DNA from: Spironucleus salmonicida
Taxonomy: Eukaryota
Direction of reading: 5' to 3'
Assembly: GCF_000497125.1 (NCBI RefSeq)
Contig: NC_090598.1
Coordinates: forward strand, 558,001-622,000
DNA: 64,000 nucleotides
Within the stretch, counting starts at the first letter, position 1; the number at the start of each line of letters is the position of its first letter. The notes beneath the pieces are model-generated. The model saw only the letters and a list, made by a program, of their open reading frames with translations. It made no database searches and was not told the origin of the DNA. Position numbers and translations under genes: made by a program. Below, one piece after another: positions 37,210 to 64,000 of the stretch.

Positions 37210-37246
37210 TCCGATTGTGGGCTTGGTTTAACTATAAAATGCGTAT

Positions 37247-37672: not shown

Positions 37673-38012
37673 TTCTGCAGATAAATATATTCATATCTTC
37701 TATTAGCTGTGCAATATTTTTTCATTATTAAAATGGAAATATAATTTTGCATATTAATGTCTAGTATTGTCTACTACACAAACTAGAAACCTAACATGTT
37801 TTTCCAAAAGACGGCGGGTGGTCTTTCAGCATAAATGCCCAACGACAGCCAAGAGCATGCGCCCGCAAGCCAGTAAAATCCTGGCACTGACCATCATACT
37901 TCTTCAAACTGACGTCCCTGTCGTGCGAAGATTCCATCCAGATATTTCATCCAGTCTGATCCTGAAAATTGTCTAAATGCACACTGAAAGCGCCCTTAAC
38001 CGCAAACAGGTC

Positions 38013-38768: not shown

Positions 38769-38882
38769 TCTGATTTAAGAAATGAATAAAGCTAGGTTAT
38801 CACATATTATACAATAATATATATTTACTTTTTAAGACACAAATAACCCAATACGATCTAATCTCGCACAAACCAGTTAATT

Positions 38883-39962
38883 TCACTAATTGACCAGACC
38901 CACCACTCTCCTCATGACCTCAACGTCCCTCAGAAGCCCCCTACTCGTCTTGTTCAGCTGGCTCGCGCTCTCCATATATTTCAGGCCCTCTCTGACCTTC
39001 CCGCCGCCGCAGAGGCTCGCAGCGTGCATAGCGTGTATTTTGCTCTGCAGCTCCCGCGAAAAAGTGCTCGATTTGCCCTGTTCGAGCTGAATTTCGTGCT
39101 TATTTTCGACGATTTTCATCATCTGCGACGTCAGAATCAGCGAGTCGTCGAATTGGCCCTTCCGGAGGTAAATTTGGGACATGAAAACCGTCGCGTCCAT
39201 GAAAAGCGGCGCCTTTTGGATGATCTGCGCGCACAAATCGAGCGCGGACTCGAACTCCGGTGTCGGCCTGTTGGCGTAGTTCTTGGCCTGTTTGAGCATG
39301 ATCTGGACCGGCTGCGACTTGATATCCGGAATTATCGGCCCTGTTTGGTCGTCAAAGTACATGTCGCGATTGTCGCGCGCCGGGACGGCGTACTTGCGCT
39401 TCGTGAAGGTCGCCGTGAGGCTTACGGTGTTCGAATTTCGCGGCTCTGGGAGCTGCTATATAGCAGCAGTTTTGGGGTCGAAATTCGATGTCAGAATGCG
39501 CTTCGCGTCGTCGATTTGGCGCTACTTCAGGAGGCGCATTTCGTTGCGCTCCTGCTGCCTACCGAGCATCTGCTTCTCCTCGGCCTCGTGCTATGCCTGG
39601 GCCTTGATGTCGTTCGATTCGCGCGCCAGCTGCTGGTTCTGCAGCTGCAGGCGCTGGAACGCGGCGTTCCTGACCGCGAGCTGCTCGCTCTGCGCGAGGT
39701 GCCGGACGATTTCGCCCCAGCTCCCGTCCGCGCCCTTCTGGATCTCGAGCCTCAGTTGCTGCTTCTTGGCCCTGCATACCGAGTTTTGGGGCGAAACGCG
39801 GTGCGCGAAGTCCAGCACGAGCTGGTGCGAGGGCGCGATCAGCGAGAGGTAGGAGTCCGTGAGCGTGATCTCGATGTCCGTCGGCGGCAGCTGTGGGGGC
39901 AGCGCGACTACTACGAAAATCGCGGTGCTGGATTCTGAGATTTCGTATGCCAGGGAAAGCAT
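38883..39962 (-). CDS. DNAAF4: Dynein axonemal assembly factor 4 (DYX1C1/PF23)-like, 359 aa (copy 1)
   Basis: N-terminal CS/p23-like domain, coiled coil, LPEPRNSNTVSLTATFTKRKYAVPARD, TPR-like C-terminus. Confidence 0.75.
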
Positions 39963-40312
39963 TTTTAAAATGTGGAAGGGATGAAATACGCGTACGAATG
40001 CATAATCTCCACCAATTAGTGCTGTAGCATATAGCAAACGATATTTGGACGCATTGCACAAAATGAGTGCCTAGAAAGTCTCCAAAAGGGTAAAGCCCCC
40101 GCTAACGAATCTCTTAAAATACGCCGGCGGCGGGAGTGCGCCATAGCATGTCTGCGGGCCTTGTACGCGGCACAGGCGGCCAATCCTAGCCTAAACCCGG
40201 TGCTGGCGGAGCAGTTCTCAGCGAAATTTGGAGGCGTTGAGGGCAGTGAGCTATATGGAAAATGCCGTGCGCTGAATTGATTGAGAATGCAGTCAATTTG
40301 GTAAGTGACGGC

Positions 40313-40762
40313 TCATTCGTTCTCTTCTAGTGTCATTATAATCCTTTTCTTTGATTTCTTGTTTAGCCTGATAGATTCAGAGGTCACCACCTCTCGCTTC
40401 AGCAGCATAAAGTTCCGCCGAAAGGATCTCCCGAACCCTGGCTGCTCGTACTTGGCCTGCACTTGCTCTTTGGTAATATTCGTGTTGGCTAAATAGTATT
40501 CGTGGAGCGAACGGTACGACGGCTCCTGGGGAAACCCCAGCAAGGGATTGCCCTCTCGCGCTCGTATTTGCTCTAAAGAGTGTTTGGCCTGAATTCTTTT
40601 CTGCCTGTCGAGTTCCACTTGTTGCTTACAGAAGTATTCTTAGTCTCTCTCCTTGAGGAAAGGGGACTGAAGGTAATATTAGTACTCCGTCCTGCACACT
40701 TGCCTAAAGTATACCGGGCGCTGAAGTGCGGGTAAATGCGGACTGGTGAAGGAGAACGGCAT
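40313..40762 (-). CDS. Hypothetical protein, 149 aa
   Basis: Supplied ORF extended upstream through TAA to ATG. Confidence 0.65.
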
Positions 40763-41647
40763 TGTCCCTGCTTTTGAGCCTGCTAGTTTAGCACTACAAT
40801 AGATATAATATTAGTGTGGTGTCCTTTCCCTTAGGCGGATACAGTATAATAGAACCTATTGTTTACTATTTGCGTCACTGAGAGCTATGTAAAAACACGC
40901 AAAGACATGCGGTTCGGCTTAACCTACCCCTGCTGCCCATCAGTCCCGCAGCTACCATCATCCACCATTATGCATAGCTGGGAAATGCCACAGGCGCGGA
41001 ACGCCAACTAAACAATAATGGCGTAGTAATCGAGCGAATACTTACAAACGGCTGCCGCGCCTGCAGTGTAGGAGCTCCCATTATTAGTCCCGGATGGCTT
41101 TGCCACATTTAACCATCTGAACGCCGGCGCAAATGTTGCTTGTAGTTCCCATACCCTGGGCGCAGCCATAGCGTGCGCATCGGGAGGTACCTCCGCGGGG
41201 CCCGCACTAGCGTGCTTTGCAAGCGTCCCGGACGTTACCAAAGTATAGGCATGCGCGTAGTTGCTCTCCGCTGCATCAGACGCTAGTTGCGGACTAAACT
41301 CTAAGAATGCCGAGCCTGGGCGTATTAAATATATTTTGCAGGTTCTCTGGTGGCGCGCCGCCCCACAACGACACATCAACGAATATGGAGTGCCGTGTTT
41401 ATTATCAGCTTTGTACGCAGCCAGCTCACCAGCAGTCACGCCTACAAATAGTAGTTTATACCATACGCGACTTTGCCTTAATCGCATAATGCGAGCGTAT
41501 ACGCACACAAGGTCGCGATGAATGGATGCTGCACAGTTTCTATACACCGTGTTCAGCGCGTTTTGGAGGAAAACGGCTTCGAACCCCAATACTGCACAAA
41601 ATCAACAAATCAGGGATGCCAGTAAATACCTATTCTTGACTACGCCA

Positions 41648-43171
41648 TCACTCAACCGGCATCGCCCCCTAGTCGCACGCGTGTTTCCCACCGTCCTGCT
41701 AGCCGCCAGCCTCTTAACCCCCTTGCTGGTCGCCCCGCCAGCGCGCAACCTGCTCCCCGAACGCCCTGCTGCAGCTCCCAATCTGCGACACAATATCGAC
41801 CAAACAGACCCCCTTCAGATTCTTCATTCCCTGCAGGAAAATCAAGTTTCCAGCCTCATGCAAAAAGGTTTCAAACGCGAAAATTGAGCTCTCGGGGTCG
41901 ATTTTAATGCATTTGTCCAGTTTCATGCACTGGTTGCTGATCATCGCCTGCGCTTTGACGACCTCCGGGTGAATATTGGTCGTTTTCCCGGTCGTGATGT
42001 CCAAATAGCGCGTGAAGCGGCCGCAGGAGGTCAGAATCGGCGCGTAGCGCTCCGGGATCGGCCGCCGGCTCGCGATCTGCAGCACCCGCTCGCCCCAGTC
42101 GCTCAGCATCTGCTGCTGCTGCTGCGTGTTCTGGCGCTTGTGCTGCAGCGCCTCGCCCTTCTGGACAGCGCAAAACTCGCAGTTCAGCGCGCGCGCAATG
42201 GAGCCAATTTCGCCGCTTTCGAGCGCGGTCCAGCGGCCGAAATTCAGCAAATTCTCGCTAAATTGCAGCATTTCGATCTGCTCGATCTGCTCGATGTGGA
42301 GCGAAAAGATTTGCTACTCAAACTTGCTGCTGGCCAGTTTTTCGAGCGTAAGCACGCTGGCATTCGCTTGAAATTGGAATGGGGGTTCGATAACCGCGAA
42401 GGCGGTTATTTCGTCGATGGAGGGGGGCAGGGGGTAGATTTTTGACGGTTTGGGCTGGTGGTAGGTGGGGGTTGCCGTAAGCGGGGCCGCGAAGTGGTCA
42501 AAACTCGCCAATTTGAAGGACGTTGGGGCCTGGGCATTTTGAGCTGCATCCTACATATGCTAACCGATTTCTACGGCACCTTGCGACTCGGTTGCGGCGG
42601 TTTGGTCTTGTGGAATCTGCTTTTTCGCACCGGTTAGAGGCAGCTTCTAGCTCTGATAACTGCCCTTTACGTAGTCGCTGTAGCCGCCGTAGACGTTCTT
42701 ACGCACGCTTTTGCGTATTTCGTGCAATTCCTTCCCGCATTAAGTTGATTACTGCTCGTAAATTGAGCGAACTCTCGGCCTGTACTGGCTGCTTTTGGCG
42801 ACCTGGGCGTTGGCTTCTTTGCGGATTTTGATCTGTTTCTCCTCGCGCAGAAAGACGCTAATTTTCTCGAAATTGCTCATTTTGGACGCCCGGATCTCCA
42901 AATCGCTGTAGCAGGCGCGGATAAGGTCAAATTGCACCTGCTTGGTCGTCCCGCGCCTGAAAATTTTGCTGTGAAAGGTCTGCAGATTTTGAGAACTTTG
43001 GGACGTTTCAGCCTTGCACGCGCCCTGCTTTCCGCGGAAAAACACCTCCAGCAGGCCCTGAAACACCCTTAAAACGCTCTTGAACCGCACGGACTCGTAC
43101 TTCACGTACTTTGCCAGGTTGCGCGGAATTATGTAATGTTACTTTCTTTATATAGTGATAAGCCCGGACAT
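41648..43171 (-). CDS. 5'-truncated copy of the 47777-49597 gene with an 18-codon new N-terminus (chimeric ORF or pseudogene), 507 aa
   Basis: Homology stops at 43117; in-frame ATG at 43171 gives MSGLITIQRKQHYIIPRN-LAKYVKYES. Confidence 0.5.
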
Positions 43172-45367: not shown

Positions 45368-47668
45368 ATGACTTCTGATAAATTTTCTGAGCTTTTCTAA
45401 CATCAGCAAGAAACTGTTGAATTTGCAATATCAAAATTTTAGACTAAGCACGGAATTCTTATAGCGCATGCCCCGGGCCTCGGAAAAACTCCAATTTCTT
45501 GCGTTATCATAAAAGAGCTAATGCTGCAGAAAAAAGTGCGATTCTCGCTCGTAGTGGCCCCAAAATCAGTCCTATTGCAGTGGAAGCAACATCTCCAGGA
45601 ATGGGCTCAATCGAGCGTATGCTACTATCAGGGCGCGCAGCGCGCGGAAGCCTTTCGGCAGTTTCTGAAGGGCAGCTGCGGCATCTTCTTGACGACCTAC
45701 CAGACGCTAATTAACGACATCGAAATCATCAATTCCGCGGTTCTGAAGCGCCGCGCGGCGTTGGAAGTGCGCGAAATGGTCCCAGAGGCTCGTTTCGGCA
45801 ACGAAATTGTCGACGCAATCTACGCCGAAATCGGCTCTCAGTAGGCCGCTAAAGCTAGCTAGTAGCACTTTGAGCACCGCGATGGGACTGCGTTCGATTT
45901 GGCGATTTACGACGAAATCACAGAGCTCAAAAACAACAAATCCCAGCGCTTTTGCGCTCTGAAACCCCAGAAAATCCACTTCAAAATAGGCCTCACTGGA
46001 ACGCCGGTCATGAACAACATGGCTGAGCTGTTCAATATTGTCGAGTTTCTGGAGCCAGGCTTTCTGGGCTGTAGGCGGCGTTTTCTGAAGACTTTCGGAG
46101 ACAAAATCTCGTTGGCGAAGTTGCGGGATGCGTCTAGAGAGGAAAAGGCCGTCGGGCGCACTTTTGCGAAAAATTTGGTTAATGAGCTTAGTGATATCAT
46201 GATCCGATTCACAAAGGATAAACTGCAAGCAATAAAAGCCAATAAAGCAGAAATTCAGGTGTGGATCGATTTTTCGCCTTTATAAAAATTGTGCTACGAA
46301 CAGTATATTTCTAGCCCTCATTTTATCCACAGAAATATCGAAAAAGGCTCACTAAGTCATATGATTTCCTTAAGAAAAATTTGTGACCATTTGTATAAAG
46401 CACATGCAAATGATCTGCCTATTTAAAAGGAAGTTAGAGATTTTGTCATGTAAAATACACCTGAAAACATACGCAAATATATAGAATAGGAATCAGAAAA
46501 TACTGAACCTACGTATAATGATTAAAACTAATTTATTGGCGATCCTTCTGAAGTAGATATAAATTCTTCTTTTTCAGCAAAATTTGATATTTTGTTGTAG
46601 TTTCTTCATTCGTTTTAAGAACGTAGTTTAAAAACGATAGTTTTCTCTGAGTCGCTTACAACTCTCAATATAATAAAAGAATTACTTCCAGATACTTTAC
46701 CCCAGCCATTAGAGATTAATGGAAAAACCCTTACAACAGAAACTCGAACTAGAGTATGTGTTGCTTTTAATAAATCTAAATCCTTTTAAATTTTGTTAAT
46801 AACGACACGTGCTGGAGGTGTGGGGCTTAATATTTAGGGTGCATCTAGAATAATACTATTCTCACCTAATTTTAACCCATAATTAGAAGAATAAGCTATT
46901 AGTAGAGCCTGGAGAATTGGCTAAAAATCGGATGTTTTCATATACAAATTTCTTATGCGAAACTCTATTGAGGAGGTTATGGTTGCCCGTTAGTTACACA
47001 AAATATAAATAGCAAATGCAGCAACACAGGACATTTTAGCATAGATTAAGGTATAATACGATGATATTTAGAAGCTTTTTGATGTTCGATACGACGGGGA
47101 ACATTATAATAAAAAATTAATTACTAAAGTTGATGGAGTAGAAAAATTATTATCTTAAATGTTCAATTTTGATGAGTGGGAAGTTGGCAAGGACAAGGAG
47201 GAAATATAAATGCAAAAATCTATTTAAAAAGAAGGTAAATGTGATTTTGCTCTTTTTTACGACTAACAAGTAGAAGTAGTTTCAAGTGATGATGAATATT
47301 AAGACGATGTGGACTTAATTTAACAATTACGAGATGAATATTAAGAAGAAAACTATGTTAAAAGTGGACGTGTAAGAATAGTTACTAGCAAAAGCTCTCA
47401 AAGCGAATATGATTCTGCACATAGTAGCTAGTTCAGTGATGAGGGAAGTGGTACATTGATAAAATTTACCAATAATAATAATAAATCCATCTGTGATGAC
47501 ATAGACAAGGAAAACTCGTCATTAATTGTTATAGATGTCTGCGAGGACACTGTATCTATGCCAAAATAAACTGAAATTGAATATGTCGATATTTCAGATG
47601 ACTCTAGTATAACAGCAATTGAGCGTTCAATGAAACAACCAGAATCTAGCTATGATGACATAAGGTGA
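45368..47668 (+). CDS. SNF2-family ATPase, ERCC6/Rad26/PICH-like, 766 aa
   Basis: HAPGLGKT, VVAPKSVLLQW, DEITELKN, LTGTPVMNN, TTRAGGVGLNI, QAISRAWRIGQ. Confidence 0.93.
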
Positions 47669-47776: not shown

Positions 47777-49597
47777 ATGCAACATGAACTCGCAGAGCTA
47801 CTAATAACGACATAAATTAGGCGCATTCACGCCATCCAGCACATGCATTCAATTGCACGATAGCTCGCCGCTCCACCCCATGTATCGACGCACAAGTCGG
47901 CTCTGCAGACAACACAGACGGATATAATTCAAATCTCGAATTCCGAAGCCAACCGCCTAGAACTCGAAGTTAAACTGATATAAGCATCTCTCCAAAGCGA
48001 ATTTGATCCGGACGAATTTCTGCCATTCGAGCTGAAAATGGAGCAGTTTTGCTCTGGGAACACGCTGCGGGACGTGTTTATGCTCGCCAATTTGTTACAG
48101 ATGGAATTTCTTGATGTGTTTTAGAATCTGGCAAAGTACGTGAAGTACGAGTCCGTGCGGTTCAAGAGCGTTTTAAGGGTGTTTCAGGGCCTGCTGGAGG
48201 TGTTTTTCCGCGGAAAGCAGGGCGCGTGCAAGGCTGAAACGTCCCAAAGTTCTCAAAATCTGCAGACCTTTCACAGCAAAATTTTCAGGCGCGGGACGAC
48301 CAAGCAGGTGCAATTTGACCTTATCCGCGCCTGCTACAGCGATTTGGAGATCCGGGCGTCCAAAATGAGCAATTTCGAGAAAATTAGCGTCTTTCTGCGC
48401 GAGGAGAAACAGATCAAAATCCGCAAAGAAGCCAACGCCCAGGTCGCCAAAAGCAGCCAGTACAGGCCGAGAGTTCGCTCAATTTACGAGCAGTAATCAA
48501 CTTAATGCGGGAAGGAATTGCACGAAATACGCAAAAGCGTGCGTAAGAACGTCTACGGCGGCTACAGCGACTACGTAAAGGGCAGTTATCAGAGCTAGAA
48601 GCTGCCTCTAACCGGTGCGAAAAAGCAGATTCCACAAGACCAAACCGCCGCAACCGAGTCGCAAGGTGCCGTAGAAATCGGTTAGCATATGTAGGATGCA
48701 GCTCAAAATGCCCAGGCCCCAACGTCCTTCAAATTGGCGAGTTTTGACCACTTCGCGGCCCCGCTTACGGCAACCCCCACCTACCACCAGCCCAAACCGT
48801 CAAAAATCTACCCCCTGCCCCCCTCCATCGACGAAATAACCGCCTTCGCGGTTATCGAACCCCCATTCCAATTTCAAGCGAATGCCAGCGTGCTTACGCT
48901 CGAAAAACTGGCCAGCAGCAAGTTTGAGTAGCAAATCTTTTCGCTCCACATCGAGCAGATCGAGCAGATCGAAATGCTGCAATTTAGCGAGAATTTGCTG
49001 AATTTCGGCCGCTGGACCGCGCTCGAAAGCGGCGAAATTGGCTCCATTGCGCGCGCGCTGAACTGCGAGTTTTGCGCTGTCCAGAAGGGCGAGGCGCTGC
49101 AGCACAAGCGCCAGAACACGCAGCAGCAGCAGCAGATGCTGAGCGACTGGGGCGAGCGGGTGCTGCAGATCGCGAGCCGGCGGCCGATCCCGGAGCGCTA
49201 CGCGCCGATTCTGACCTCCTGCGGCCGCTTCACGCGCTATTTGGACATCACGACCGGGAAAACGACCAATATTCACCCGGAGGTCGTCAAAGCGCAGGCG
49301 ATGATCAGCAACCAGTGCATGAAACTGGACAAATGCATTAAAATCGACCCCGAGAGCTCAATTTTCGCGTTTGAAACCTTTTTGCATGAGGCTGGAAACT
49401 TGATTTTCCTGCAGGGAATGAAGAATCTGAAGGGGGTCTGTTTGGTCGATATTGTGTCGCAGATTGGGAGCTGCAGCAGGGCGTTCGGGGAGCAGGTTGC
49501 GCGCTGGCGGGGCGACCAGCAAGGGGGTTAAGAGGCTGGCGGCTAGCAGGACGGTGGGAAACACGCGTGCGACTAGGGGGCGATGCCGGTTGAGTGA
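47777..49597 (+). CDS. Hypothetical protein, 606 aa (full-length copy; enters IR2 at 48128)
   Basis: Supplied ORFs 48140, 48734 and 48974 share one frame joined by TAA/TAG. Confidence 0.8.
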
Positions 49598-50483
49598 TGG
49601 CGTAGTCAAGAATAGGTATTTACTGGCATCCCTGATTTGTTGATTTTGTGCAGTATTGGGGTTCGAAGCCGTTTTCCTCCAAAACGCGCTGAACACGGTG
49701 TATAGAAACTGTGCAGCATCCATTCATCGCGACCTTGTGTGCGTATACGCTCGCATTATGCGATTAAGGCAAAGTCGCGTATGGTATAAACTACTATTTG
49801 TAGGCGTGACTGCTGGTGAGCTGGCTGCGTACAAAGCTGATAATAAACACGGCACTCCATATTCGTTGATGTGTCGTTGTGGGGCGGCGCGCCACCAGAG
49901 AACCTGCAAAATATATTTAATACGCCCAGGCTCGGCATTCTTAGAGTTTAGTCCGCAACTAGCGTCTGATGCAGCGGAGAGCAACTACGCGCATGCCTAT
50001 ACTTTGGTAACGTCCGGGACGCTTGCAAAGCACGCTAGTGCGGGCCCCGCGGAGGTACCTCCCGATGCGCACGCTATGGCTGCGCCCAGGGTATGGGAAC
50101 TACAAGCAACATTTGCGCCGGCGTTCAGATGGTTAAATGTGGCAAAGCCATCCGGGACTAATAATGGGAGCTCCTACACTGCAGGCGCGGCAGCCGTTTG
50201 TAAGTATTCGCTCGATTACTACGCCATTATTGTTTAGTTGGCGTTCCGCGCCTGTGGCATTTCCCAGCTATGCATAATGGTGGATGATGGTAGCTGCGGG
50301 ACTGATGGGCAGCAGGGGTAGGGTTAAGCCGAACCGCATGTCTTTGCGTGTTTTTACATAGCTCTCAGTGACGCAAATAGTAAACAATAGGTTCTATTAT
50401 ACTGTATCCGCCTAAGGGAAAGGACACCACACTAATATTATATCTATTGTAGTGCTAAACTAGCAGGCTCAAAAGCAGGGACA

Positions 50484-50933
50484 ATGCCGTTCTCCTTCAC
50501 CAGTCCGCATTTACCCGCACTTCAGCGCCCGGTATACTTTAGGCAAGTGTGCAGGACGGAGTACTAATATTACCTTCAGTCCCCTTTCCTCAAGGAGAGA
50601 GACTAAGAATACTTCTGTAAGCAACAAGTGGAACTCGACAGGCAGAAAAGAATTCAGGCCAAACACTCTTTAGAGCAAATACGAGCGCGAGAGGGCAATC
50701 CCTTGCTGGGGTTTCCCCAGGAGCCGTCGTACCGTTCGCTCCACGAATACTATTTAGCCAACACGAATATTACCAAAGAGCAAGTGCAGGCCAAGTACGA
50801 GCAGCCAGGGTTCGGGAGATCCTTTCGGCGGAACTTTATGCTGCTGAAGCGAGAGGTGGTGACATCTGAATCTATCAGGCTAAACAAGAAATCAAAGAAA
50901 AGGATTATAATGACACTAGAAGAGAACGAATGA
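50484..50933 (+). CDS. Hypothetical protein, 149 aa (mirror of 40313-40762)
   Basis: Open frame under the Gln code. Confidence 0.65.
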
Positions 50934-51283
50934 GCCGTCACTTACCAAATTGACTGCATTCTCAATCAATTCAGCGCACGGCATTTTCCATATAGCTCAC
51001 TGCCCTCAACGCCTCCAAATTTCGCTGAGAACTGCTCCGCCAGCACCGGGTTTAGGCTAGGATTGGCCGCCTGTGCCGCGTACAAGGCCCGCAGACATGC
51101 TATGGCGCACTCCCGCCGCCGGCGTATTTTAAGAGATTCGTTAGCGGGGGCTTTACCCTTTTGGAGACTTTCTAGGCACTCATTTTGTGCAATGCGTCCA
51201 AATATCGTTTGCTATATGCTACAGCACTAATTGGTGGAGATTATGCATTCGTACGCGTATTTCATCCCTTCCACATTTTAAAA

Positions 51284-52363
51284 ATGCTTTCCCTGGCATA
51301 CGAAATCTCAGAATCCAGCACCGCGATTTTCGTAGTAGTCGCGCTGCCCCCACAGCTGCCGCCGACGGACATCGAGATCACGCTCACGGACTCCTACCTC
51401 TCGCTGATCGCGCCCTCGCACCAGCTCGTGCTGGACTTCGCGCACCGCGTTTCGCCCCAAAACTCGGTATGCAGGGCCAAGAAGCAGCAACTGAGGCTCG
51501 AGATCCAGAAGGGCGCGGACGGGAGCTGGGGCGAAATCGTCCGGCACCTCGCGCAGAGCGAGCAGCTCGCGGTCAGGAACGCCGCGTTCCAGCGCCTGCA
51601 GCTGCAGAACCAGCAGCTGGCGCGCGAATCGAACGACATCAAGGCCCAGGCATAGCACGAGGCCGAGGAGAAGCAGATGCTCGGTAGGCAGCAGGAGCGC
51701 AACGAAATGCGCCTCCTGAAGTAGCGCCAAATCGACGACGCGAAGCGCATTCTGACATCGAATTTCGACCCCAAAACTGCTGCTATATAGCAGCTCCCAG
51801 AGCCGCGAAATTCGAACACCGTAAGCCTCACGGCGACCTTCACGAAGCGCAAGTACGCCGTCCCGGCGCGCGACAATCGCGACATGTACTTTGACGACCA
51901 AACAGGGCCGATAATTCCGGATATCAAGTCGCAGCCGGTCCAGATCATGCTCAAACAGGCCAAGAACTACGCCAACAGGCCGACACCGGAGTTCGAGTCC
52001 GCGCTCGATTTGTGCGCGCAGATCATCCAAAAGGCGCCGCTTTTCATGGACGCGACGGTTTTCATGTCCCAAATTTACCTCCGGAAGGGCCAATTCGACG
52101 ACTCGCTGATTCTGACGTCGCAGATGATGAAAATCGTCGAAAATAAGCACGAAATTCAGCTCGAACAGGGCAAATCGAGCACTTTTTCGCGGGAGCTGCA
52201 GAGCAAAATACACGCTATGCACGCTGCGAGCCTCTGCGGCGGCGGGAAGGTCAGAGAGGGCCTGAAATATATGGAGAGCGCGAGCCAGCTGAACAAGACG
52301 AGTAGGGGGCTTCTGAGGGACGTTGAGGTCATGAGGAGAGTGGTGGGTCTGGTCAATTAGTGA
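51284..52363 (+). CDS. DNAAF4: DNAAF4 (DYX1C1/PF23)-like (copy 2)
   Basis: Mirror of 38883-39962. Confidence 0.75.
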
Positions 52364-52476
52364 AATTAACTGGTTTGTGCGAGATTAGATCGTATTGGGT
52401 TATTTGTGTCTTAAAAAGTAAATATTATTATTGTATAATATGTGATAACCTAGCTTTATTCATTTCTTAAATCAGA

Positions 52477-53232
52477 ATGGACTACGAGGCTGACATGCTC
52501 AAAACGCTACAGTTCTTGCAGAAATCGCGTCAGGACTCCGCACTGCTCTAAGTTATTATCAGCAGCTAGAAAAACCTCTCGTCGGCGATTTCTGCGCTGC
52601 AGCCTCACATCAAATCGCATAAGGAAGCCTACAGAGTGCAGAAAGCAGTTTTCTGCTTTAACGACATCAGCACACAGCAGCTTATTGTGTTCCACAAGGA
52701 TCTGGACTACTTTATCAGAACCTCTGAGGCGGTACTGCAGAAGTACCGCCGGCAGCTGGCGAGCACCGAGCAGGCCGTTCGCAAGGCCCTCTTCCGCATC
52801 GAAACTGGCGTTCTTATCCAGTAGAAACTGGTAGCTCGCATTGCCTTCTTACCGTGCTCCGTCGCGGTTGCCGTGTAGGGCAAGTTTTCAGTTCTTGATA
52901 TCCGCACGCAGCAGCTCCGCAAGGACTTGGAGACGCTGTTGCAGCGGCGTCAGTTCGAGCATCTGCAGTTCACGGACCAACGCGTGGTCGTGCAGCTACA
53001 GGCGGCGGCGCGAGCGCGCGATTTGGTGCTGTTACTGACTGCGGGGAACTACCTCGCGCAGGTGGTAAGCGAGCTGAACGCCGTGCACGTGGCGTGGAAG
53101 GACGTCAGCCCGTACCGCCGGGCGGAGGAGCTTGCGCGCGGGGACGTCGCGGAGCAGACTTAGCGCGAGGCGTTCCCGGACGAGAGCGGGCGCAGTGCGG
53201 ACAATGAAGAGGAGGCTTCATTACTGGAGTGA
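52477..53232 (+). CDS. Hypothetical protein, 251 aa (mirror of 38013-38768)
   Basis: TCATTTC upstream; GAG-TGA end. Confidence 0.75.
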
Positions 53233-53572
53233 GACCTGTTTGCGGTTAAGGGCGCTTTCAGTGTGCATTTAGACAATTTTCAGGATCAGACTGGATGAAA
53301 TATCTGGATGGAATCTTCGCACGACAGGGACGTCAGTTTGAAGAAGTATGATGGTCAGTGCCAGGATTTTACTGGCTTGCGGGCGCATGCTCTTGGCTGT
53401 CGTTGGGCATTTATGCTGAAAGACCACCCGCCGTCTTTTGGAAAAACATGTTAGGTTTCTAGTTTGTGTAGTAGACAATACTAGACATTAATATGCAAAA
53501 TTATATTTCCATTTTAATAATGAAAAAATATTGCACAGCTAATAGAAGATATGAATATATTTATCTGCAGAA

Positions 53573-53998
53573 ATGAAGAAAAACTCTGCAATAGATTATG
53601 CGTTTAACTAGGAGTCAAAGTTTATAGCCAACATCTAAAAAATACACCAAATTGATACTTCGAAATTCACATGCGACTACCCCTTGGTACTATTTCCGAT
53701 ATAAGAAATTCAAATCGAGAAACAGGCCATACGGAATAAACTTGAAAATGTAAAGATTCAACGTCTTAAAACACAGCAAATTCACCAATTTTTGCAATAA
53801 AACTAGTGCGAACCATTATCAGACAAAGAGTTGATATCTGTAGAAAAAGCTGCGCATAAACTTACGTAAAATAGACTATTAAACTCTCATTCTAGTCTCA
53901 AGAGAAACACTTCATACTCATCCATTGTAAGATCCTAGAATGCAAGGAAAAATTCTTATGATAATCTATAAGACTTGAAGATTTTTGGAAGATAGTGA
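53573..53998 (+). CDS. Hypothetical protein, 141 aa (mirror of 37247-37672)
   Basis: Fully read open frame; TAG-TGA end. Confidence 0.85.
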
Positions 53999-54035
53999 AT
54001 ACGCATTTTATAGTTAAACCAAGCCCACAATCGGA

Positions 54036-54353
54036 TCACCAGCAGTAACACATCTGGCAGACCGTTAAACAGTTATAATGAAGGGCACTGAATAACATCG
54101 CTGTCCAGTGAGGTTTACGTCGCACTTGTCTATCTTACGGGCCGTAGTGGGCGACGCAACAGAGACCCAATCCCAGGAAGGTAGCTGTGCAGCATCCGGC
54201 GCATCTGTGGCATGGGTAGAACTGGAGTACCAGGCATCTGCAGTCGATGTGTGCACGTAGATAGAATGAAACTCCTGCACCTTCTGGATTTCGACTACCT
54301 CGTTTGATACGCCTATGGGGCAAACCCTAGCCAGGGTCTTATGGCGTATTCAT
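54036..54353 (-). pseudogene. Degenerate Cys-rich paralog (mirror of 36892-37209)
   Basis: Reverse complement of the left-arm copy. Confidence 0.7.
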
Positions 54354-54709
54354 AAGTTCGGATTGGCCTACTTATAGCGCATCTTATATTCAGCGATTAT
54401 TTATTTATCATTGCAGATTATGCTAATCATTCTAGTAAAAAAGGGGACATACTTGGCTATTCTATCTGCAGCATGTAGAATGAATATTGTGTGCGGTATA
54501 GTATTATATACTGCGGGATTAAATAAACTAAAACTGCGCCACATAATATATCTATACTATACGGTAGCCTGTACATATTCCCAGCCGGCTTGTCGTAAAA
54601 TATCCAGAGGCTCAAACGCTAAATGGCTGCGTATGCGGGGCAGCCCACGCATGCGAGGGTCCTCCAGCCGATCACACCACTTAGCATATAATATACGCCG
54701 CACCGCAGA

Positions 54710-55725
54710 ATGAAGCGCAACCTATCCGCTAGCACCAAGCCCACCCCGCACGACCCACGGCAGCTAGACGCCCTCCTCCGCAGCGCGGCAGGTGCGCTCC
54801 AGCAGGCGGCTGGCTAGAACGCGCACCTGCGACAAGAGATCCAGCGGCTCAGCGGCGGCCCGCAGCAGACCCGGGGCGACACGCTGCGCCAGCTCCGGGG
54901 GCAGACCATCCTCCATCAGCAGCGCGAATACGAAGTATAGGAGAAGATGCACCTCCTCCAGGCCCAGCAGGGCGAGGTCTTCGCTCTCGAGACCGCCGTC
55001 GAGGCCCGTCTGGAGGCCCTAAACGAGGAGGGGTGCGCCGAGCTGGAGGCGCTGCGTGCCGAGTACCGCGCCACTTCAGCGATCCTGGAAACCGTGAACA
55101 CCCAGATCGAGGCCCTCGCCGCGACCAGTGCGCAGACCATGCAGCTGTCCGCGGAGTTCGAGACGCAGCATGAGCACGAACTGCTCCAGAACCAGGAGCT
55201 GCAACAGCGGACCTCCCGCATCGCCCAGGACCTGCACTCAGCCCAGCGACGCCGCGCGGCCTTCGTGGCCAGGCAGCAGGTCCTAGCGCAGCAGGTGACG
55301 GACACCCAGACCGCAGTGGAGAAGGAACGCACTAATGCAGCCTCGTAGCTGCGCCAGATGGATGAGCTTGCGGCATACGACAAGGTGCGGACCATCATGC
55401 TCGAAAACGGCACGCAGCACGCCCTGGAGCAGATCCAGCGCTGCAGCTGGAGCATATCGCTGTCTGCGAGGAGGTCCAGGCGAAGGTCGCCCAAAACGAG
55501 GATCTGCGCGCGGTGATCGACTCCTAGGCAGATGCCAGGGCGCGCATCGCTCACCAGATCCGGCAGGAACAGGAGCGCGGAGAGTCCCTCCAGCGGCAGC
55601 AGGAGGAGCTGGAGCGCCGCACACGGGCCTTCTGCGAGGGCATTCTGGGGCGGCCGGTCCGGGAAGGGGACGACCTGGAGCGCGCGCTGGAGCAGGCGAT
55701 GGGGGAGCTCGCCAGCAGCCAGTGA
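54710..55725 (+). pseudogene. Frameshifted copy of the 338 aa coiled-coil gene
   Basis: 1-bp deletion near 55444 (CGC TGC AGC vs CGC TGC CAG) brings TGA 55514-55516 into frame. Confidence 0.65.
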
Positions 55726-56299
55726 GCTTTGGAGCTGAGCATGGAGAGTGTGAACTCCCTCTAGCATGGCTTGGACTTGGCCCGTTTCGCTCATTTTTGG
55801 TGCTCGGAGCAATCGCACCGAAATTCAACCGGACAGCTTCTGGAAGTTCCACCGTCAAGGCCCATGCGAATTTTGATTTTACGATACGAAAGTCTCTTAA
55901 TTTGGCGTTCCCAGTAAGGCAAAAGCACTCATTCTGAATCTTGAAATACCGACAACTGAAATTACGATTTCAGCAGAAACTGTACTTTCAGGCAACGGAA
56001 TTAGTTGCGAAATGCGGACCAGGCGATTCTAAACTTTTTTTGCGCTAGCATAACGAGCTGGAATTTGTAGCAACATTAAGTATCTCCAATTTAGGGCAAG
56101 CTGTTTAATGTTGATTTGTTAAATCTTCAGCAATATTCTTATAAACAATTAAAATTAATTAGAGGAAAATGATTGAATATTGTTACCTATTTAAAATATA
56201 TGAGATTATAATTATAATAAATAATAGTTCATTCGAGTAATTATAGTTTTTTAAATGTATGAATGGTAAAATATACTTAATTTTCGTATATTATTATGG

Positions 56300-60314: not shown

Positions 60315-61394
60315 TCATCCCATAATGTCCGCAAATCCATCGATTCCGACGATCCCAAATTCGCACACGATCCCACTGATATTTTGGTGCTCTAAAATTC
60401 CGAAAACGAAGTCCAAATTGCTGCCTTCAGAAACCGCATTTCGGACCGTCGAATCCAACAAAATTTGGCACGAAAATTTCAGTTTTTCGCACACCAAAAA
60501 TGAAGGAATTTTGTATTTTGCGCACATCTGCGATATGTACTGAATCTGTGAAGAAACCAGCGCATTTCCTGTGTTGGAAAGCTCGAAACAGTTGAAGAAA
60601 AACTTCGAAATTTGAGTAAAAGGAATGGAGTGAAGTTAGCATTATTATATAGTAATATTAGGAATATTTTGTAACAGCTACTTGGCCTGGTTCGGAATTT
60701 TATCGGTCAAAATAACGTTAAATGTGGTTTTCTTGGCTGCAACAATGATTGCGCGGAAGATGAGCTGGCTTTCGCTCGAAATGAGGATTGTGCAGTTTGG
60801 TTCAATCAGCTTGATCAAGTGCTTGTAAATCACATTTTCAGCGTCAATGATGTTAAAATTGATGTAGTTTCTGCAGAAATTTGTTAGCTGCGTTTGGTTT
60901 TCGAGCTTTTCGAGCTTAAAAAAATCGAGAAAATGCGAGAAACAGCGCGGGATGAAGCCGTAAAACTCTGAAATAATTTTGGTGTACAGTAGCGTTATCG
61001 ATGTGATGTCTATCTCGGTGAAAGAGTCCGATTCTGAACGAGAGGTATCTTCGTTGCGTTAAAACTATGAAAAATGCTCCTTAACGGCTCTGACAAGTTG
61101 AATAATTCGCAGATTGATACCTGCAGAGTTATTGGAAAGCATGTCGATGAAACGTCGGCCTTCCATGTTGAAAGGCTATAGGTTACCTTAATAAGGCAAG
61201 TACATCTGGTTTGGCTCTACCTAATATCCTAGGTAAACTGTATGTGGAATAGATGGGTTTTAAGATGCTATTAGATGTTCAAATCCGGGAATCTCACATT
61301 TTGGAAAATTAAATACTTTTTACGTTTTTGATATCTCAAATGAGTGTGTCTCAACTAAATTTACATCTTCTGTATTAAAGATAGAGTCGTCCAT
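60315..61394 (-). CDS. Translation initiation factor eIF2B regulatory subunit, most like delta, 359 aa
   Basis: LIEPNCTIL, YKIPSFLVCEKLKFSCQILLDSTVRN, ISGIVCEFG. Confidence 0.78.
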
Positions 61395-61483
61395 TTTAAT
61401 AAAGTGAAAACAAAGAAGCAATTATGTATAATTTATATAATAAAAAAGTAAAATAATTGGAATCTATTACATATAGGATAAAA

Positions 61484-61798
61484 TCATTCTAATATATTTG
61501 TGAGACTTCTATATCTCTTTTTCAATAAAACTCTTCTGTAATGTTAAGATACTTCAGGGCCAGTCCTCTTATGAACTAAAGTTTAATTATGCAATAATTT
61601 GGCAACTTATTCCCAAGAAATATTTGTATTATTTTAGAGAATACAAAGAATAATACTGTCTTCGTCCTATGTGAACTTCTTATACTTTTTAGAAGGTTCT
61701 ATTTGCTGAAAAGACTCTGATCTGTTCAACTATATGGATAAATTCTCTGAGGTAATGTCAACTTCGCAAAGAATCGACAGATATTCATAGTCTATCAT
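61484..61798 (-). CDS. Single Myb-domain protein, 104 aa
   Basis: KKFTQDEDSIIL..ISWEQVAKLL..KRTGPEVSQHYRRVL. Confidence 0.85.
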
Positions 61799-62306
61799 TT
61801 TCAATGAATAGTGATAATGATATACATAATAGTAAATAACTAAATTATGAAAAAAAATGATGTTTTTTATAAACTAACATATTAATTTTTAGTATATTAT
61901 ATTTATATTATAAGAAAGCTAGGAATCAAATCGTAAACACTTTAATTAATATATATCCATAATATTCAAAATATATATGAAGAACAATACAAATCTAGTA
62001 TTTACTGTTGTTTGTTATTTATTACGAAATTAACATAATTAATAATAGTTACGTAATTAGTATAAAAATGTAATTAATTACTTTAACTATTGCAGAAACT
62101 AGTACTACACATACCCATCTCTAAATTCATACTATAGTATATTTTGTACTTCGGAAAACTTTATATATATGATTTTTATTAATATATTATTACAATCTAT
62201 TTTTGGTTGTTGTAATAAATACCAGTATAATATTTTACTCTAATACTAATTATCATATGATTTTAAATAAATTTGAAATTGATATTATTTATTTCCTTTC
62301 CCCATA

Positions 62307-63215
62307 ATGACATTTTTTACGCCTGAAAAGATTTAGCAAGTTAACGACAGATTTGCAAAAACATTCACTGAAACCATCGTAATCGGGCCCTCACTTCTCA
62401 TCCAGCTCCCCGAGGAAGACAAGCTCTCCGTTCAGTACCAAATAATCAAATTTTATACGTCCAGAAATGTAGACAAACACTTGATTCGCGTCCTGGGCGA
62501 GCACGGGATCGTAGCAATCTACAGTTTCCCATACCTTTCGAAGCTGCAGCACTAAATCCCTTCCATAACACCAATTGTGCACGAGGACTACCCACACCGG
62601 CCCCCGTTTTCGACCGAGAACGCGCAGATCTTTGACAAACTGGACCTGGTGCGGCCGCTGCCAGTGAAAATCGACCCCCCGAACTCCGGGATGTCCCATG
62701 GCGCGTTCTTCGCAGAAATGCAGCACTCGATGAAGAACTTCGCCAGCGACGCCACAGTAATCGATTTCGAGGCGTTTGCGACCATGCCGCAGCCAATTCC
62801 GTCCGAAGTTGGCGCTGTGCGCATCAGAAACGGCGAAATAACGCGTTTCCACGGCTTTTTCGCGCCCCTGGAAAACGCAGCAGCCCACCCGCATGCCCAG
62901 GAAACTTTTGAGCTCACGTCCATTCCTCTCCTTATATCACCAAATTTGCCTTATATCACATGCTAATAATTGCTAAAATTTGTAGAAAATTCTACAATTT
63001 TTGCAAAAAATTTCGACCTCGAAAAGCGGCTTTTGACAAAGTTTTGCGGCCGGAAAGTCCGCGTTTTCGAGGTCCAGCCGCTCCTTTTCGCGCTGGATTT
63101 GGCGAAAGTGGAGGGGCAGCGCTGCGCGTTTCACAGCAGCGCACCGGGGCACTGCGCGCTGCAGGACGCGAGCGCGTGGGCGAACTTCGCCCCGTCGACG
63201 ACTGCGAGCGTCTGA
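62307..63215 (+). CDS. DEDDh-fold nuclease with Maelstrom-type ECHC motif, 302 aa
   Basis: VIDFEAF, PIPSEVGAVRI, FHGFFAP, LTSIP, AKNFDLE, CAFH-x5-HCALQDA; supplied ORFs 62577 and 62970 join via TAA TAA. Confidence 0.78.
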
Positions 63216-63652
63216 AAGGGACACGAGTTCGGCCGCTGGCGCCGAAACGCCACAGGAACTGACGATTTTGAGGGTTTTGAGGAAGATAATTTTGAGGGAG
63301 CGAAAAGTTGGTTTCGAATTCGAATTAATTCAAGTTTTTGGGCGTTTTCGGTTTTCCAGGACATAAAAAGTGCGTGCTGGTGCGCGTTGGCGGCAGCGGC
63401 GGCCTGGGACGTCAGCTCTGTTGGTTTGTAGAACTGGTGACTGGGTGGAGGCGCTTGGCTGCTTAAATGCATCGTTTAGCTGTTGGGTGTGGAAAACTGA
63501 TATTAATTTGCAATTTAGTCGATTATCGGGGCGATTTTCGGCTCCAGTGGAGGATGCTTTGCTGAAAGCGCTGCAGGTAATGCGATGAAGGATTTTCGCG
63601 GTTTCTGGGCAGTCAGAATCGCGAGTTTCGTGTTCGGCTGCGAGACGTTCAT
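63131..63652 (-). CDS. Hypothetical protein, 173 aa, overlapping the 3' end of the MAEL-like gene
   Basis: Supplied ORF 63131-63472 extends through TAA to ATG 63652. Confidence 0.6.
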
Positions 63653-64000
63653 TTGGGGTTAGGAAGTTAGCTATTTCTGATATAATAATGATGATGATGA
63701 GTTTCTTCAGTTTCTGTTTTTACGCGTTTCTGTAGTAATTTGGGAAGCATTCTTGGTTGTTGGGGTAGCGGATAGCAGTGTGAAGTAAGGGCGGGTAGTG
63801 CGTATGATAAATGCAGAGTAAAGAAAAATCATATGGACTGGAATTTAAATGGTATTATATGGTTTTTAGTGCAGATAGAACTTAGTTAAAAATGTTAAAT
63901 TTAATTTATAGGCACATGTTTCTAGCGCGATTAACTATAGCTATAGAAGCTACTGCTAGATTATTGTAATATTAATAGAATTAATTGATATATTTTCGCT

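What the first reader, a model, noticed from the sequence alone, without database searches (positions are those of the whole stretch)
62307..63215. Maelstrom-like nuclease retaining both DEDDh catalytic residues and the ECHC zinc motif
Seen: under the Gln code two ORF fragments join into one 302 aa protein with D-F-E (first two acids), P-S-E-V-G, AKNFDLE (Glu where the third acid is expected) and C-A-F-H-x5-H-C-A-L-Q-D. Established: MAEL domains are DEDDh-fold RNases defined by an ECHC zinc site; animal piRNA-pathway MAELs lost the DEDD residues while protist forms such as the Entamoeba one keep both sets. Inference: this is a catalytically intact protist-type MAEL with a ~140 aa unassigned N-terminal region, and may mark an undescribed small-RNA or RNA-processing activity in hexamitids. 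Standard-code gene calling splits it in two.
Basis: partly seen in the sequence, partly recalled or inferred. Interest (0 to 1): 0.8.

Follow-up and report, generated by a model that had tools for sequence, protein, structure and literature searches.

The report
Diplomonad exonuclease with Maelstrom-like zinc motif
This is a real gene for a 3'-5' nuclease found only in hexamitid protists; it keeps all its catalytic residues and carries a cysteine/histidine motif like that of Maelstrom proteins, but its fold and any link to small RNAs remain untested.

Summary
Window 62307-63215 (+) is a 302-aa ORF under code 6, with four in-frame TAA/TAG codons, and every quoted motif is present. Its relatives are hypothetical proteins of Spironucleus salmonicida and Hexamita inflata. 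Across 8 family members the catalytic set D153, E155, E239, H282 and D287 is invariant, and so are E167, C273, H276 and C283. E239 aligns with the ExoII Asp of a solved PolC-type exonuclease.

The C-x2-H...C-x3-D spacing in the S. salmonicida member equals that of the Bombyx Maelstrom zinc ligands. Two members give sub-threshold Pfam Maelstrom hits in a consistent register.

Membership in the Maelstrom family is not shown:
- No member reaches the Pfam Maelstrom cut-off, and the window protein gives no Maelstrom hit at all.
- RNase_T is the stronger Pfam match for most members.
- The only solved relative found by sequence is a bacterial PolC-type exonuclease.
- Both AlphaFold models failed (pLDDT 31-32), so neither fold ranking nor zinc-site geometry could be tested.

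The small-RNA inference is not supported. The S. salmonicida genome paper reports no Dicer, Argonaute or RdRP.

Verdict: a lineage-specific, probably active DEDDh-type exonuclease with a Maelstrom/arenavirus-like zinc motif. It is a new member of a known kind, of moderate interest.

The parts
62307..63215 (+). Whole coding sequence, 302 codons plus TGA stop, read with TAA/TAG = Gln
   Evidence: homology across the ORF's second half; protein already in the public collection
62307..62741 (+). N-terminal region, aa 1-145, with no assigned family; not detectably similar even to the S. salmonicida relative
   Evidence: 0 Pfam families at E<=1; homologue matches start at about aa 137-143
62742..63191 (+). 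DEDDh-type 3'-5' exonuclease domain, about aa 146-295
   Evidence: 2p1j_A PolC-type exonuclease E 0.0024, and 4.5e-5 / 8.6e-5 with family profiles; RNase_T 18.1 bits for the domain alone, below the cut-off of 24
62763..62771 (+). ExoI motif D153-F154-E155, the first two metal-binding acids
   Evidence: invariant in 8 of 8; aligned with DFE of 2p1j_A
62805..62807 (+). E167 in P-S-E-V-G-A-V (strand beta2), candidate zinc ligand; this Glu is also present in ordinary DnaQ/PolC-type enzymes
   Evidence: invariant; aligned with EIGAV of 2p1j_A
63003..63023 (+). ExoII motif A-K-N-F-D-L-E; E239 (63021-63023) takes the place of the third acid
   Evidence: E239 aligns with the Asp of HNANFD in 2p1j_A; K234, L238 and E239 invariant, D237 not
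63123..63167 (+). C273-x2-H276-x5-H282-C283-x3-D287: candidate zinc ligands C273, H276 and C283 interleaved with ExoIII (H282 general base, D287 fourth acid)
   Evidence: R272, C273, F275, H276, H282, C283, L285 and D287 invariant in 8 of 8; HCaLdDa aligned with HRALDDA of 2p1j_A; motif found in 7 of 7 members scanned
62334..62336 (+). In-frame TAG, Gln10
62553..62555 (+). In-frame TAA, Gln83
62964..62969 (+). In-frame TAA TAA, Gln220-Gln221, inside the exonuclease domain
   Evidence: homologue HSPs run across it
62937..63002 (+). AT-rich block inside the domain (aa 211-232; GC 0.24, GC3 0.18, against 0.57-0.62 beside it). It still aligns in frame with helix A and strand 4 of the PolC-type exonuclease.
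   Evidence: composition; alignment; no joint in contigs of 4 of 4 runs

Best explanation
The gene encodes a member of a small family seen so far only in Hexamitinae diplomonads. Its C-terminal ~150 residues form a DnaQ-like (DEDDh-type) 3'-5' exonuclease domain.

Inferred mechanism: D153, E155, E239 and D287 hold two Mg2+/Mn2+ ions. H282 activates the attacking water. Nucleotides are removed one at a time from a 3' end, most likely of RNA.

C273 and H276, in the loop before the last helix, together with C283, directly after the catalytic His, and E167 on strand beta2 are inferred to bind a structural Zn2+. This is the arrangement seen in Maelstrom domains and the arenavirus nucleoprotein exonuclease.

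On this reading it works like the active protist Maelstrom-type nucleases (Entamoeba EhMael, Trypanosoma RIF4). The lineage-specific N-terminal ~145 residues are inferred to supply partner or substrate choice.

Shown here: the gene, the family, residue conservation and motif register. Inferred: zinc binding, activity, RNA as substrate. Common descent with Maelstrom, as opposed to resemblance, is left open.
For: The gene is real and its relatives are limited to diplomonads. The exhaustive HMMER search found 6 proteins at E<=1e-3: the query itself, 3 true relatives (P0002, P0004, P0006) and 2 repetitive proteins that I set aside by eye. Source names are S. salmonicida and H. inflata hypothetical proteins.

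Catalytic residues are established:
- ExoI, ExoII and ExoIII align with the solved PolC-type exonuclease 2p1j_A.
- 25 columns are invariant in the 8-sequence alignment, including D153, E155, E167, E239, C273, H276, H282, C283 and D287. The 8 sequences include two near-identical pairs.

The motif resembles the Maelstrom zinc site:
- The motif C-x-F-H-x(5-16)-H-C-x-L-x-D is present in 7 of 7 members scanned.
- P0002 has C249, H252, C261 and D265. These offsets (+3, +12, +16) match Bombyx Maelstrom C290, H293, C302 and R306 (PMC4408791, passages).
- Pfam Maelstrom hits P0002 aa 245-273 = profile 163-191 (E 0.0052) and P0010 aa 32-230 = profile 5-194 (E 0.046). Both place the ExoIII Asp at profile position 183 if the hit ends are ungapped.

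ESM Atlas results for P0002 are leads only:
- Maelstrom clusters appear at ranks 12 and 30, and an arenavirus nucleoprotein cluster at rank 27, of the top 30 by features.
- The highest TM by query (0.52) is to a Maelstrom cluster.

From the literature:
- The ECHC zinc finger is reported for Maelstrom and arenaviral ExoN, and zinc fingers as lacking in cellular DnaQ-like exonucleases (PMC7968707, passages).
- A Glu at ExoII is listed as a normal variant (D/E) in the same paper.

Control: 3 of 3 phage exonuclease ORFs that carry HCALDDAL have no C-x2-H before it. So the full motif is more than the HC pair.
Against: - No Pfam Maelstrom hit for the window protein, whether whole, as the domain alone, or as C-terminal pieces. 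0 of 8 members reach the Maelstrom cut-off of 22 bits; the best is 16.9.
- RNase_T is the stronger Pfam match. 6 of 8 members hit it and 3 of 8 exceed its cut-off. The window's domain alone scores 18.1 bits.
- The only solved structure found by sequence, with 2 profiles and 3 single queries, is a bacterial PolC-type exonuclease. No Maelstrom or arenavirus chain appeared at E<=10.
- The Atlas neighbours of P0010 are generic exonuclease clusters with no Maelstrom among those shown.
- E167 is not diagnostic, because the same Glu occurs in the zinc-free PolC-type enzyme.
- No usable 3D model was obtained, so clustering of E, C, H and C is untested.
- No activity, metal or expression data exist.
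Confidence: 0.55

Rival explanations
1. It is an ordinary DnaQ/PolC/RNase T-type exonuclease, possibly taken from bacteria or a virus. On this reading it acts in DNA repair or general RNA 3' trimming. The conserved Cys/His are a lineage-specific feature unrelated to Maelstrom: either no zinc, or a convergent site.
For: - The best and only solved-structure match by sequence is the Thermotoga PolC-type exonuclease.
- RNase_T outscores Maelstrom in most members.
- Atlas structural neighbours of P0002 are mainly bacterial RNase_T clusters, 6 of the 10 rows shown by the family named for the aligned part.
- The top Atlas neighbours of P0010 are giant-virus, phage and archaeal exonuclease clusters.
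- HC at ExoIII also occurs in plain phage exonucleases.
Against: - C273, H276 and C283 are invariant across members only 26-34% identical to the window protein.
- The spacing is identical to the Bombyx zinc ligands in P0002.
- There are two register-consistent sub-threshold Maelstrom hits.
- An active Maelstrom-type enzyme would be expected to hit RNase_T through its ExoI-III motifs, so those hits do not discriminate.
- No bacterial, viral or metagenomic relative passed tblastn in 4 scans.
Confidence: 0.3
2. It is a component of an undescribed small-RNA pathway in hexamitids. It would act like Trypanosoma RIF4, which strips one strand from siRNA duplexes.
For: - RIF4 has the same layout: a long N-terminal region plus a C-terminal DEDDh domain. 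It was noted among Maelstrom-type proteins and prefers double-stranded RNA (PMC3359990, passages).
- The family has several paralogues in H. inflata.
Against: - Dicer, Argonaute and RdRP were not found in S. salmonicida, which holds a family member (PMC3916229). They were also not found in newly sequenced diplomonads (PMC11437800).
- RIF4 is kept only in RNAi-proficient trypanosomatids, the opposite pattern.
- Giardia, which is reported to use Dicer and Argonaute, gave no relative at E<=1e-3 in the exhaustive single-sequence search.
- I could not survey the window's own genome, because none is held.
Confidence: 0.08
3. It is a nuclease-dead RNA-binding or scaffolding protein, like animal Maelstrom.
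For: Animal Maelstrom keeps the fold and the zinc site but is inactive (PMC4408791). The third acid here is Glu, not Asp.
Against: - All five catalytic positions are occupied by competent residues and are invariant.
- Glu at ExoII is an accepted variant (PMC7968707).
- Animal Maelstrom lost these residues outright (N124 and R306 in Bombyx).
Confidence: 0.05

Closest known systems
Entamoeba histolytica MAEL-domain protein EHI_192630 (EhMael)
   Same: A protist protein reported to carry both the DEDD catalytic residues and the ECHC zinc motif. It is active as a Mg2+/Mn2+-dependent exoribonuclease on single-stranded RNA (PMC4408791, passages read). The window protein has both residue sets in the same order.
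   Different: No sequence-level match to the Maelstrom profile for the window protein. The third acid is Glu. The exonuclease core is compact, about 150 aa. The N-terminal 145 aa are unrelated. I could not align the two directly, because no Entamoeba sequence was obtainable through the tools.
Trypanosoma brucei RIF4
   Same: N-terminal region of unknown type plus a C-terminal DEDDh domain with H-x4-D (H472, D477). A 3'-5' exonuclease listed among protist Maelstrom-type proteins (PMC3359990; PMC2628886).
   Different: RIF4 is an RNAi factor kept only where Argonaute and Dicer are kept. The family here occurs in S. salmonicida, reported to lack them. RIF4 has Asp at ExoII (D392).
Animal Maelstrom MAEL domain (Bombyx, Drosophila; Pfam PF13017)
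   Same: The zinc ligands are E on beta2, C-x2-H in the loop before the last helix, and C four residues before the position of the last catalytic Asp. The offsets C, +3, +12, +16 are identical in P0002 and two residues shorter in the window protein. Two family members give sub-threshold PF13017 hits.
   Different: Animal Maelstrom lacks the DEDD residues, is inactive as a nuclease, carries an HMG box and works in the piRNA pathway. Here the catalytic set is complete and there is no HMG box.
Arenavirus nucleoprotein exonuclease domain (Lassa virus)
   Same: An active DEDDh exoribonuclease that also has the ECHC zinc site (note added in proof of PMC4408791; PMC7968707). From recall only, the zinc Cys directly follows the catalytic His, as H282-C283 does here. 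An arenavirus nucleoprotein cluster is rank 27 of 30 among the Atlas neighbours of P0002.
   Different: It is a viral protein fused to a nucleocapsid core domain. No sequence match was found here. The residue numbers of the Lassa site come from memory, not from any call.
Thermotoga maritima PolC-type DEDDh exonuclease (PDB 2P1J) / Pfam RNase_T PF00929
   Same: The only solved structure matched by sequence. ExoI, the beta2 E-I-G-A-V, ExoII and ExoIII all align.
   Different: 2P1J has Arg after the catalytic His and no C-x2-H in the aligned stretch. It has Asp at ExoII and His where the family has K234.

Membership tests
Maelstrom / MAEL domain (Pfam PF13017) | Score at or above the Pfam gathering cut-off (22 bits) | tested here: not met
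   The window protein gives no hit at E<=10, whether whole, as the domain alone, or as C-terminal pieces. Best family members: P0002 16.9 bits and P0010 13.8 bits. 0 of 8 reach 22.
Maelstrom / MAEL domain (Pfam PF13017) | Conserved E...C-x2-H...C residues in the order and places of the zinc ligands | tested here: met
   E167, C273, H276 and C283 are invariant in 8 of 8. P0002 offsets equal those of Bombyx C290, H293, C302, R306. This is at sequence level only.
Maelstrom / MAEL domain (Pfam PF13017) | The four residues converge on one Zn2+ in the folded protein | tested here: inconclusive
   The two AlphaFold2 models had mean pLDDT 32.3 and 31.1. No coordinates are given to the script machine. 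No fold search was run on such models.
Maelstrom / MAEL domain (Pfam PF13017) | Structure closer to solved MAEL domains than to other DEDD nucleases | not testable with these tools
   It needs a confident model. The only hint is the Atlas's own model of P0002 (pLDDT 0.58): TM 0.52 to a Maelstrom cluster against 0.42-0.50 for the other nine rows shown, which is a lead only.
DEDDh / DnaQ-like 3'-5' exonucleases (Pfam RNase_T PF00929) | ExoI D-x-E | tested here: met
   D153 and E155 align with 2p1j_A and are invariant.
DEDDh / DnaQ-like 3'-5' exonucleases (Pfam RNase_T PF00929) | ExoII acidic residue | tested here: met
   E239 aligns with the Asp of HNANFD and is invariant. It is Glu instead of Asp, a variant listed as D/E in PMC7968707.
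DEDDh / DnaQ-like 3'-5' exonucleases (Pfam RNase_T PF00929) | ExoIII H-x4-D (the 'h' subgroup) | tested here: met
   H282 and D287 align with HRALDDA of 2p1j_A and are invariant.
DEDDh / DnaQ-like 3'-5' exonucleases (Pfam RNase_T PF00929) | Score at or above the Pfam gathering cut-off (24 bits) | tested here: not met
   The window protein gives no hit when whole and 18.1 bits for the domain alone. Three of 8 family members pass: P0004 28.0, P0007 28.4, P0006 26.8.
DEDDh / DnaQ-like 3'-5' exonucleases (Pfam RNase_T PF00929) | Metal-dependent 3'-5' exonuclease activity | not testable with these tools
   It needs recombinant protein.

The most novel reading that the evidence does not exclude
The family is a true, catalytically live branch of the Maelstrom lineage that has been kept, and multiplied in Hexamita, in eukaryotes reported to lack Argonaute, Dicer and RdRP. 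That would mean the ancestral job of the Maelstrom nuclease was not tied to RNA silencing. One candidate job is general RNA 3' processing or decay; another is destruction of double-stranded RNA, as in the arenavirus enzyme. Its recruitment to piRNA/siRNA pathways would then have come later. A bolder sub-case is that hexamitids run a silencing-like pathway without the canonical proteins.
Probability: 0.3. Interest if true: 0.6.

Novelty: new member of a known kind. Interest (0 to 1): 0.4.

Why it matters
Active nucleases that combine the DEDD site with the Maelstrom zinc motif are known from few lineages. Entamoeba, trypanosomatids and arenaviruses are the ones named in the papers read here. 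They anchor the argument that animal Maelstrom is a nuclease turned RNA binder.

A diplomonad family with both residue sets, in organisms reported to lack the RNAi core, would give a test case. It could show what such nucleases do outside RNA silencing.

If the resemblance is only convergent, the gene is one more lineage-specific DnaQ-like exonuclease among hypothetical proteins of a fish parasite's relatives. That would be of local annotation value only.

Tried and rejected
**Structure.** AlphaFold2 on the window protein with 8 aligned sequences gave pLDDT 32.3. On the S. salmonicida member with 9 sequences it gave 31.1. Both are unusable, so I ran no fold search and measured no distances.

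**Deepening the family.**
- Three word-index protein searches returned only diplomonad proteins. They did not even list P0002 and P0006, so their blanks are weak.
- Related-locus scans found pattern matches but no tblastn-confirmed relative: metagenomes twice with 168 matches each, viral contigs with 8, and prokaryote genomes with 18.

**Genome survey.** A survey of the window's own genome for Argonaute, Dicer and RdRP was not possible, because no genome is held.

**Solved structures.** Single-sequence searches with P0002 gave 0 hits. With P0010 the only hit was 2p1j_A, at E 0.071.

**Profile-profile comparison.** I could not compare the family with a Maelstrom alignment, because no Maelstrom sequence could be obtained through the tools.

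**Sequencing runs.**
- No RNA holder is listed. Four runs of one study hold the stretch, and their kind is only guessed as RNA.
- Their contigs leave 61436-62254 almost uncovered and begin at 62315-62327, just inside the ORF. I draw no conclusion on expression or on the transcript start from this.

**Other blanks.**
- Rfam on 61000-64000 gave nothing meaningful; the best E was 0.71.
- Earlier findings of this scan: three look-ups, nothing.
- Papers linking Maelstrom with Giardia or diplomonads: the search 'maelstrom' + 'Giardia' gave 7 papers, none by title or abstract about a MAEL domain in Giardia. None of the 15 papers listed by the six-term search held 'maelstrom'. Supplements of the cited papers were not opened.

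**Rejected ideas.**
- The AT-rich block 62937-63002 is not an intron. It aligns in frame with the PolC-type exonuclease, and the contigs show no joint there.
- D237 is not the third acid, although I first thought so. The alignment and conservation point to E239.

Full report
**1. The observation**

Under the ciliate/Hexamita code (table 6), window 62307-63215 (+) is one ORF of 302 codons. It has four in-frame reassigned stops: Q10 TAG, Q83 TAA, and Q220-Q221 TAA TAA.

Under table 11 the second half falls into two fragments, 62577-62966 and 62970-63215.

All quoted motifs are present:
- D153-F-E155
- P-S-E167-V-G
- A-K-N-F-D-L-E239
- C273-A-F-H276-S-S-A-P-G-H282-C283-A-L-Q-D287

The window is a mosaic of AT-rich sequence (GC about 0.2-0.3) and GC-richer blocks. 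The ORF is GC 0.52, against 0.18 just upstream. It has 1 TGA in frame, its stop, against 2-6 in the other five frames.

**2. Is it a real gene?**

Yes.
- An exhaustive HMMER search of 1.84 billion representative proteins gave 6 proteins at E<=1e-3. These were the query itself, three real relatives (P0002 at 7.8e-8, P0004, P0006) and two long repetitive proteins (P0003, P0005). I set the last two aside after reading them.
- The collection names the relatives as hypothetical proteins of Spironucleus salmonicida (P0002, listed under two locus tags) and Hexamita inflata (P0004/P0007, P0006/P0009). Profile searches added P0010 and P0011 of H. inflata.
- The 302-aa protein itself is already in the public collection, on a 1.8-Mb contig. 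So the source annotation used the right code, and the gene is not split there.
- With code 6, 5 of 5 homologues gave a single tblastn HSP covering the domain and running across the TAATAA at 62964-62969, with E from 9.4e-13 to 6.5e-9. There is no second copy in the window; the next best E is >= 1.0.
- Contigs of 4 of 4 public runs cover the ORF from 62315-62327 onward, with 0 differences, 0 gaps and no joints. These runs come from one study and their kind is only guessed. So the reassigned codons and the AT-rich block 62937-63002 stand in those contigs as in the window.

**3. What the domain is**

The only solved structure matched by sequence is the PolC-type DEDDh exonuclease 2p1j_A. The E-values are 0.0024 for the single sequence and 4.5e-5 and 8.6e-5 for the family profiles.

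The alignments fix the register:
- D153/E155 = ExoI.
- S-E167-V-G-A-V = the beta2 E-I-G-A-V.
- E239 falls on the Asp of H-N-A-N-F-D (ExoII).
- H282-C-A-L-Q-D287 falls on H-R-A-L-D-D (ExoIII).

The protein is therefore of the DEDDh type, with Glu as the third acid.

In an 8-sequence alignment, 25 columns are invariant. The other members are 26-34% identical to the window protein, and the set includes two near-identical pairs. The invariant columns include D153, E155, E167, K234, E239, R272, C273, F275, H276, H282, C283 and D287. D237, which I first took for the third acid, is K or H in other members.

Pfam results:
- RNase_T matches 6 of 8 members, and 3 of them exceed the cut-off of 24 bits.
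- The window protein gives no Pfam hit when whole.
- Its domain alone scores 18.1 bits for RNase_T.

**4. The Maelstrom question**

From the papers (passages read):
- The Bombyx MAEL domain has a DEDD-nuclease fold with a structural Zn2+ held by E137 (beta2), C290, H293 and C302. N124 and R306 replace catalytic residues.
- Entamoeba EHI_192630 has both DEDD and ECHC and is an active Mg/Mn-dependent exoribonuclease.
- Lassa nucleoprotein also has both (PMC4408791).
- Protist MAEL-type proteins were reported from Entamoeba and trypanosomatids. Giardia is not mentioned (PMC2628886).
- A structural survey states that the ECHC finger is shared by Maelstrom and arenaviral ExoN, and that cellular DnaQ-like exonucleases lack zinc fingers (PMC7968707).

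Evidence for a Maelstrom-type site in this family:
- The family carries C-x-F-H-x(5-16)-H-C-x-L-x-D in 7 of 7 members scanned.
- In P0002 the offsets C249, H252, C261, D265 equal the Bombyx offsets C290, H293, C302, R306. In the window protein the loop is two residues shorter.
- Pfam Maelstrom gives sub-threshold hits to 2 of 8 members. P0002 aa 245-273 matches profile 163-191 (16.9 bits, E 0.0052). P0010 aa 32-230 matches profile 5-194 (13.8 bits, E 0.046).
- If the hit ends are ungapped, both put the ExoIII Asp at profile position 183. I could not see the alignments.
- Atlas look-ups are leads only. For P0002, Maelstrom clusters (ranks 12 and 30) and an arenavirus nucleoprotein cluster (rank 27) are among the 30 nearest by features. 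A Maelstrom cluster has the highest TM by query (0.52), against 0.42-0.50 for the other nine rows shown, most of them RNase_T clusters.
- For P0010 the nearest clusters are generic exonucleases from giant viruses, phages, archaea and bacteria.
- As a small control, 3 of 3 phage exonuclease ORFs carrying H-C-A-L-D-D-A-L have no C-x2-H before it. These came from 6 pattern matches in viral contigs, of which the other 3 are not exonuclease ORFs. So the HC pair alone is not diagnostic, and the full motif is more specific.

Evidence against membership:
- No member reaches the Maelstrom cut-off, and the window protein has no Maelstrom hit in any form.
- No Maelstrom or arenavirus chain appears in five searches of solved structures at E<=10.
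- E167 is shared with the zinc-free PolC-type enzyme.

The decisive structural test failed. AlphaFold2 gave pLDDT 32.3 for the window protein and 31.1 for P0002. The family is too shallow, and I could not deepen it. I therefore ran no fold search, and the zinc geometry is untested.

**5. Mechanism proposed**

Inferred from the DEDDh family chemistry:
- D153, E155, E239 and D287 bind two divalent ions.
- H282 is the general base.
- The enzyme removes 3' nucleotides.
- C273, H276, C283 and E167 tie the loop before the last helix to the sheet through a structural zinc, as in Maelstrom.

RNA is the more likely substrate, by analogy with EhMael, RIF4 and the arenavirus enzyme. Nothing here excludes DNA.

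The first 145 residues have no Pfam family. They are not detectably similar even to the S. salmonicida member, because matches begin at about aa 137. P0010 and P0011 lack such a region. It is probably a lineage-specific adaptor.

**6. The small-RNA inference**

Trypanosoma RIF4 is noted among the Maelstrom-type proteins. It is a DEDDh exonuclease with a long N-terminal region that converts siRNA duplexes to single strands, and it is kept only in RNAi-proficient species (PMC3359990).

The picture in diplomonads is the opposite:
- The S. salmonicida genome paper says Dicer, Argonaute and RdRP were not found (PMC3916229).
- A 2024 study found no Dicer or Argonaute in newly sequenced diplomonads (PMC11437800).
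- The H. inflata genome paper does not mention them.
- Giardia gave no relative of this protein.

The family's distribution therefore runs against a link to canonical RNA silencing. I could not survey the window's own genome.

**7. Verdict**

This is a probably active DEDDh-type exonuclease with a Maelstrom/arenavirus-like Cys/His motif, restricted so far to Hexamitinae.
- Membership in the Maelstrom family is unproven.
- The link to small RNAs is unsupported.
- It is a new member of a known kind, of moderate interest.
- Interest would rise if structure and phylogeny place it in the Maelstrom lineage, because it would then be a live Maelstrom-type nuclease in organisms without the RNAi core.

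Noticed in passing
window 35135-43120 and 48125-56109: A near-perfect inverted duplication of about 8.0 kb. Four adjoining segments of 666, 3019, 2104 and 2198 nt are 99-100% complementary. The 5.0-kb spacer holds an SNF2-family helicase-like ORF at 45368-47668 (+), a name given on reading its translation. The arms are the GC-rich blocks.
   Followed up: partly
window 62937-63002: A 66-nt AT-rich block (GC 0.24, GC3 0.18) lies inside an otherwise GC-rich exonuclease domain (0.57-0.62). It holds the TAATAA pair, is in frame and aligns with helix A and strand 4 of the PolC-type exonuclease. H. inflata members have about 60 more residues in this region. The cause of the composition break is unexplained.
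   Followed up: partly
window 63224-63930, ORF 63330-63917 (-): Separate contigs in runs X3 and X4 (63228-63930 and 63224-63879) cover a unit just past the exonuclease stop. In X1 and X2 one contig runs through both units. A convergent 195-aa code-6 ORF at 63330-63917 (-) fits the span. It has no Pfam family and no Rfam match.
   Followed up: partly
window 60315-61487 (-) and 61484-62401 (-): The upstream neighbours on the minus strand are an ORF with an eIF2B-family (IF-2B) hit at 25.1 bits, and a Myb-like DNA-binding domain at aa 243-299 of a long code-6 ORF whose true start is probably much further downstream.
   Followed up: no
L002, L003, L004 (IMG/VR viral contigs): These phage-type DEDDh exonuclease ORFs carry H-C-A-L-D-D-A-L at ExoIII but have no C-x2-H before it. 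A Cys after the catalytic His therefore occurs outside the Maelstrom-like set.
   Followed up: partly
P0002 (S. salmonicida relative): The same 274-aa sequence is listed under two locus tags and four accessions in the collection. This suggests two identical gene copies in that genome, perhaps in a duplication like the one seen in this window.
   Followed up: no
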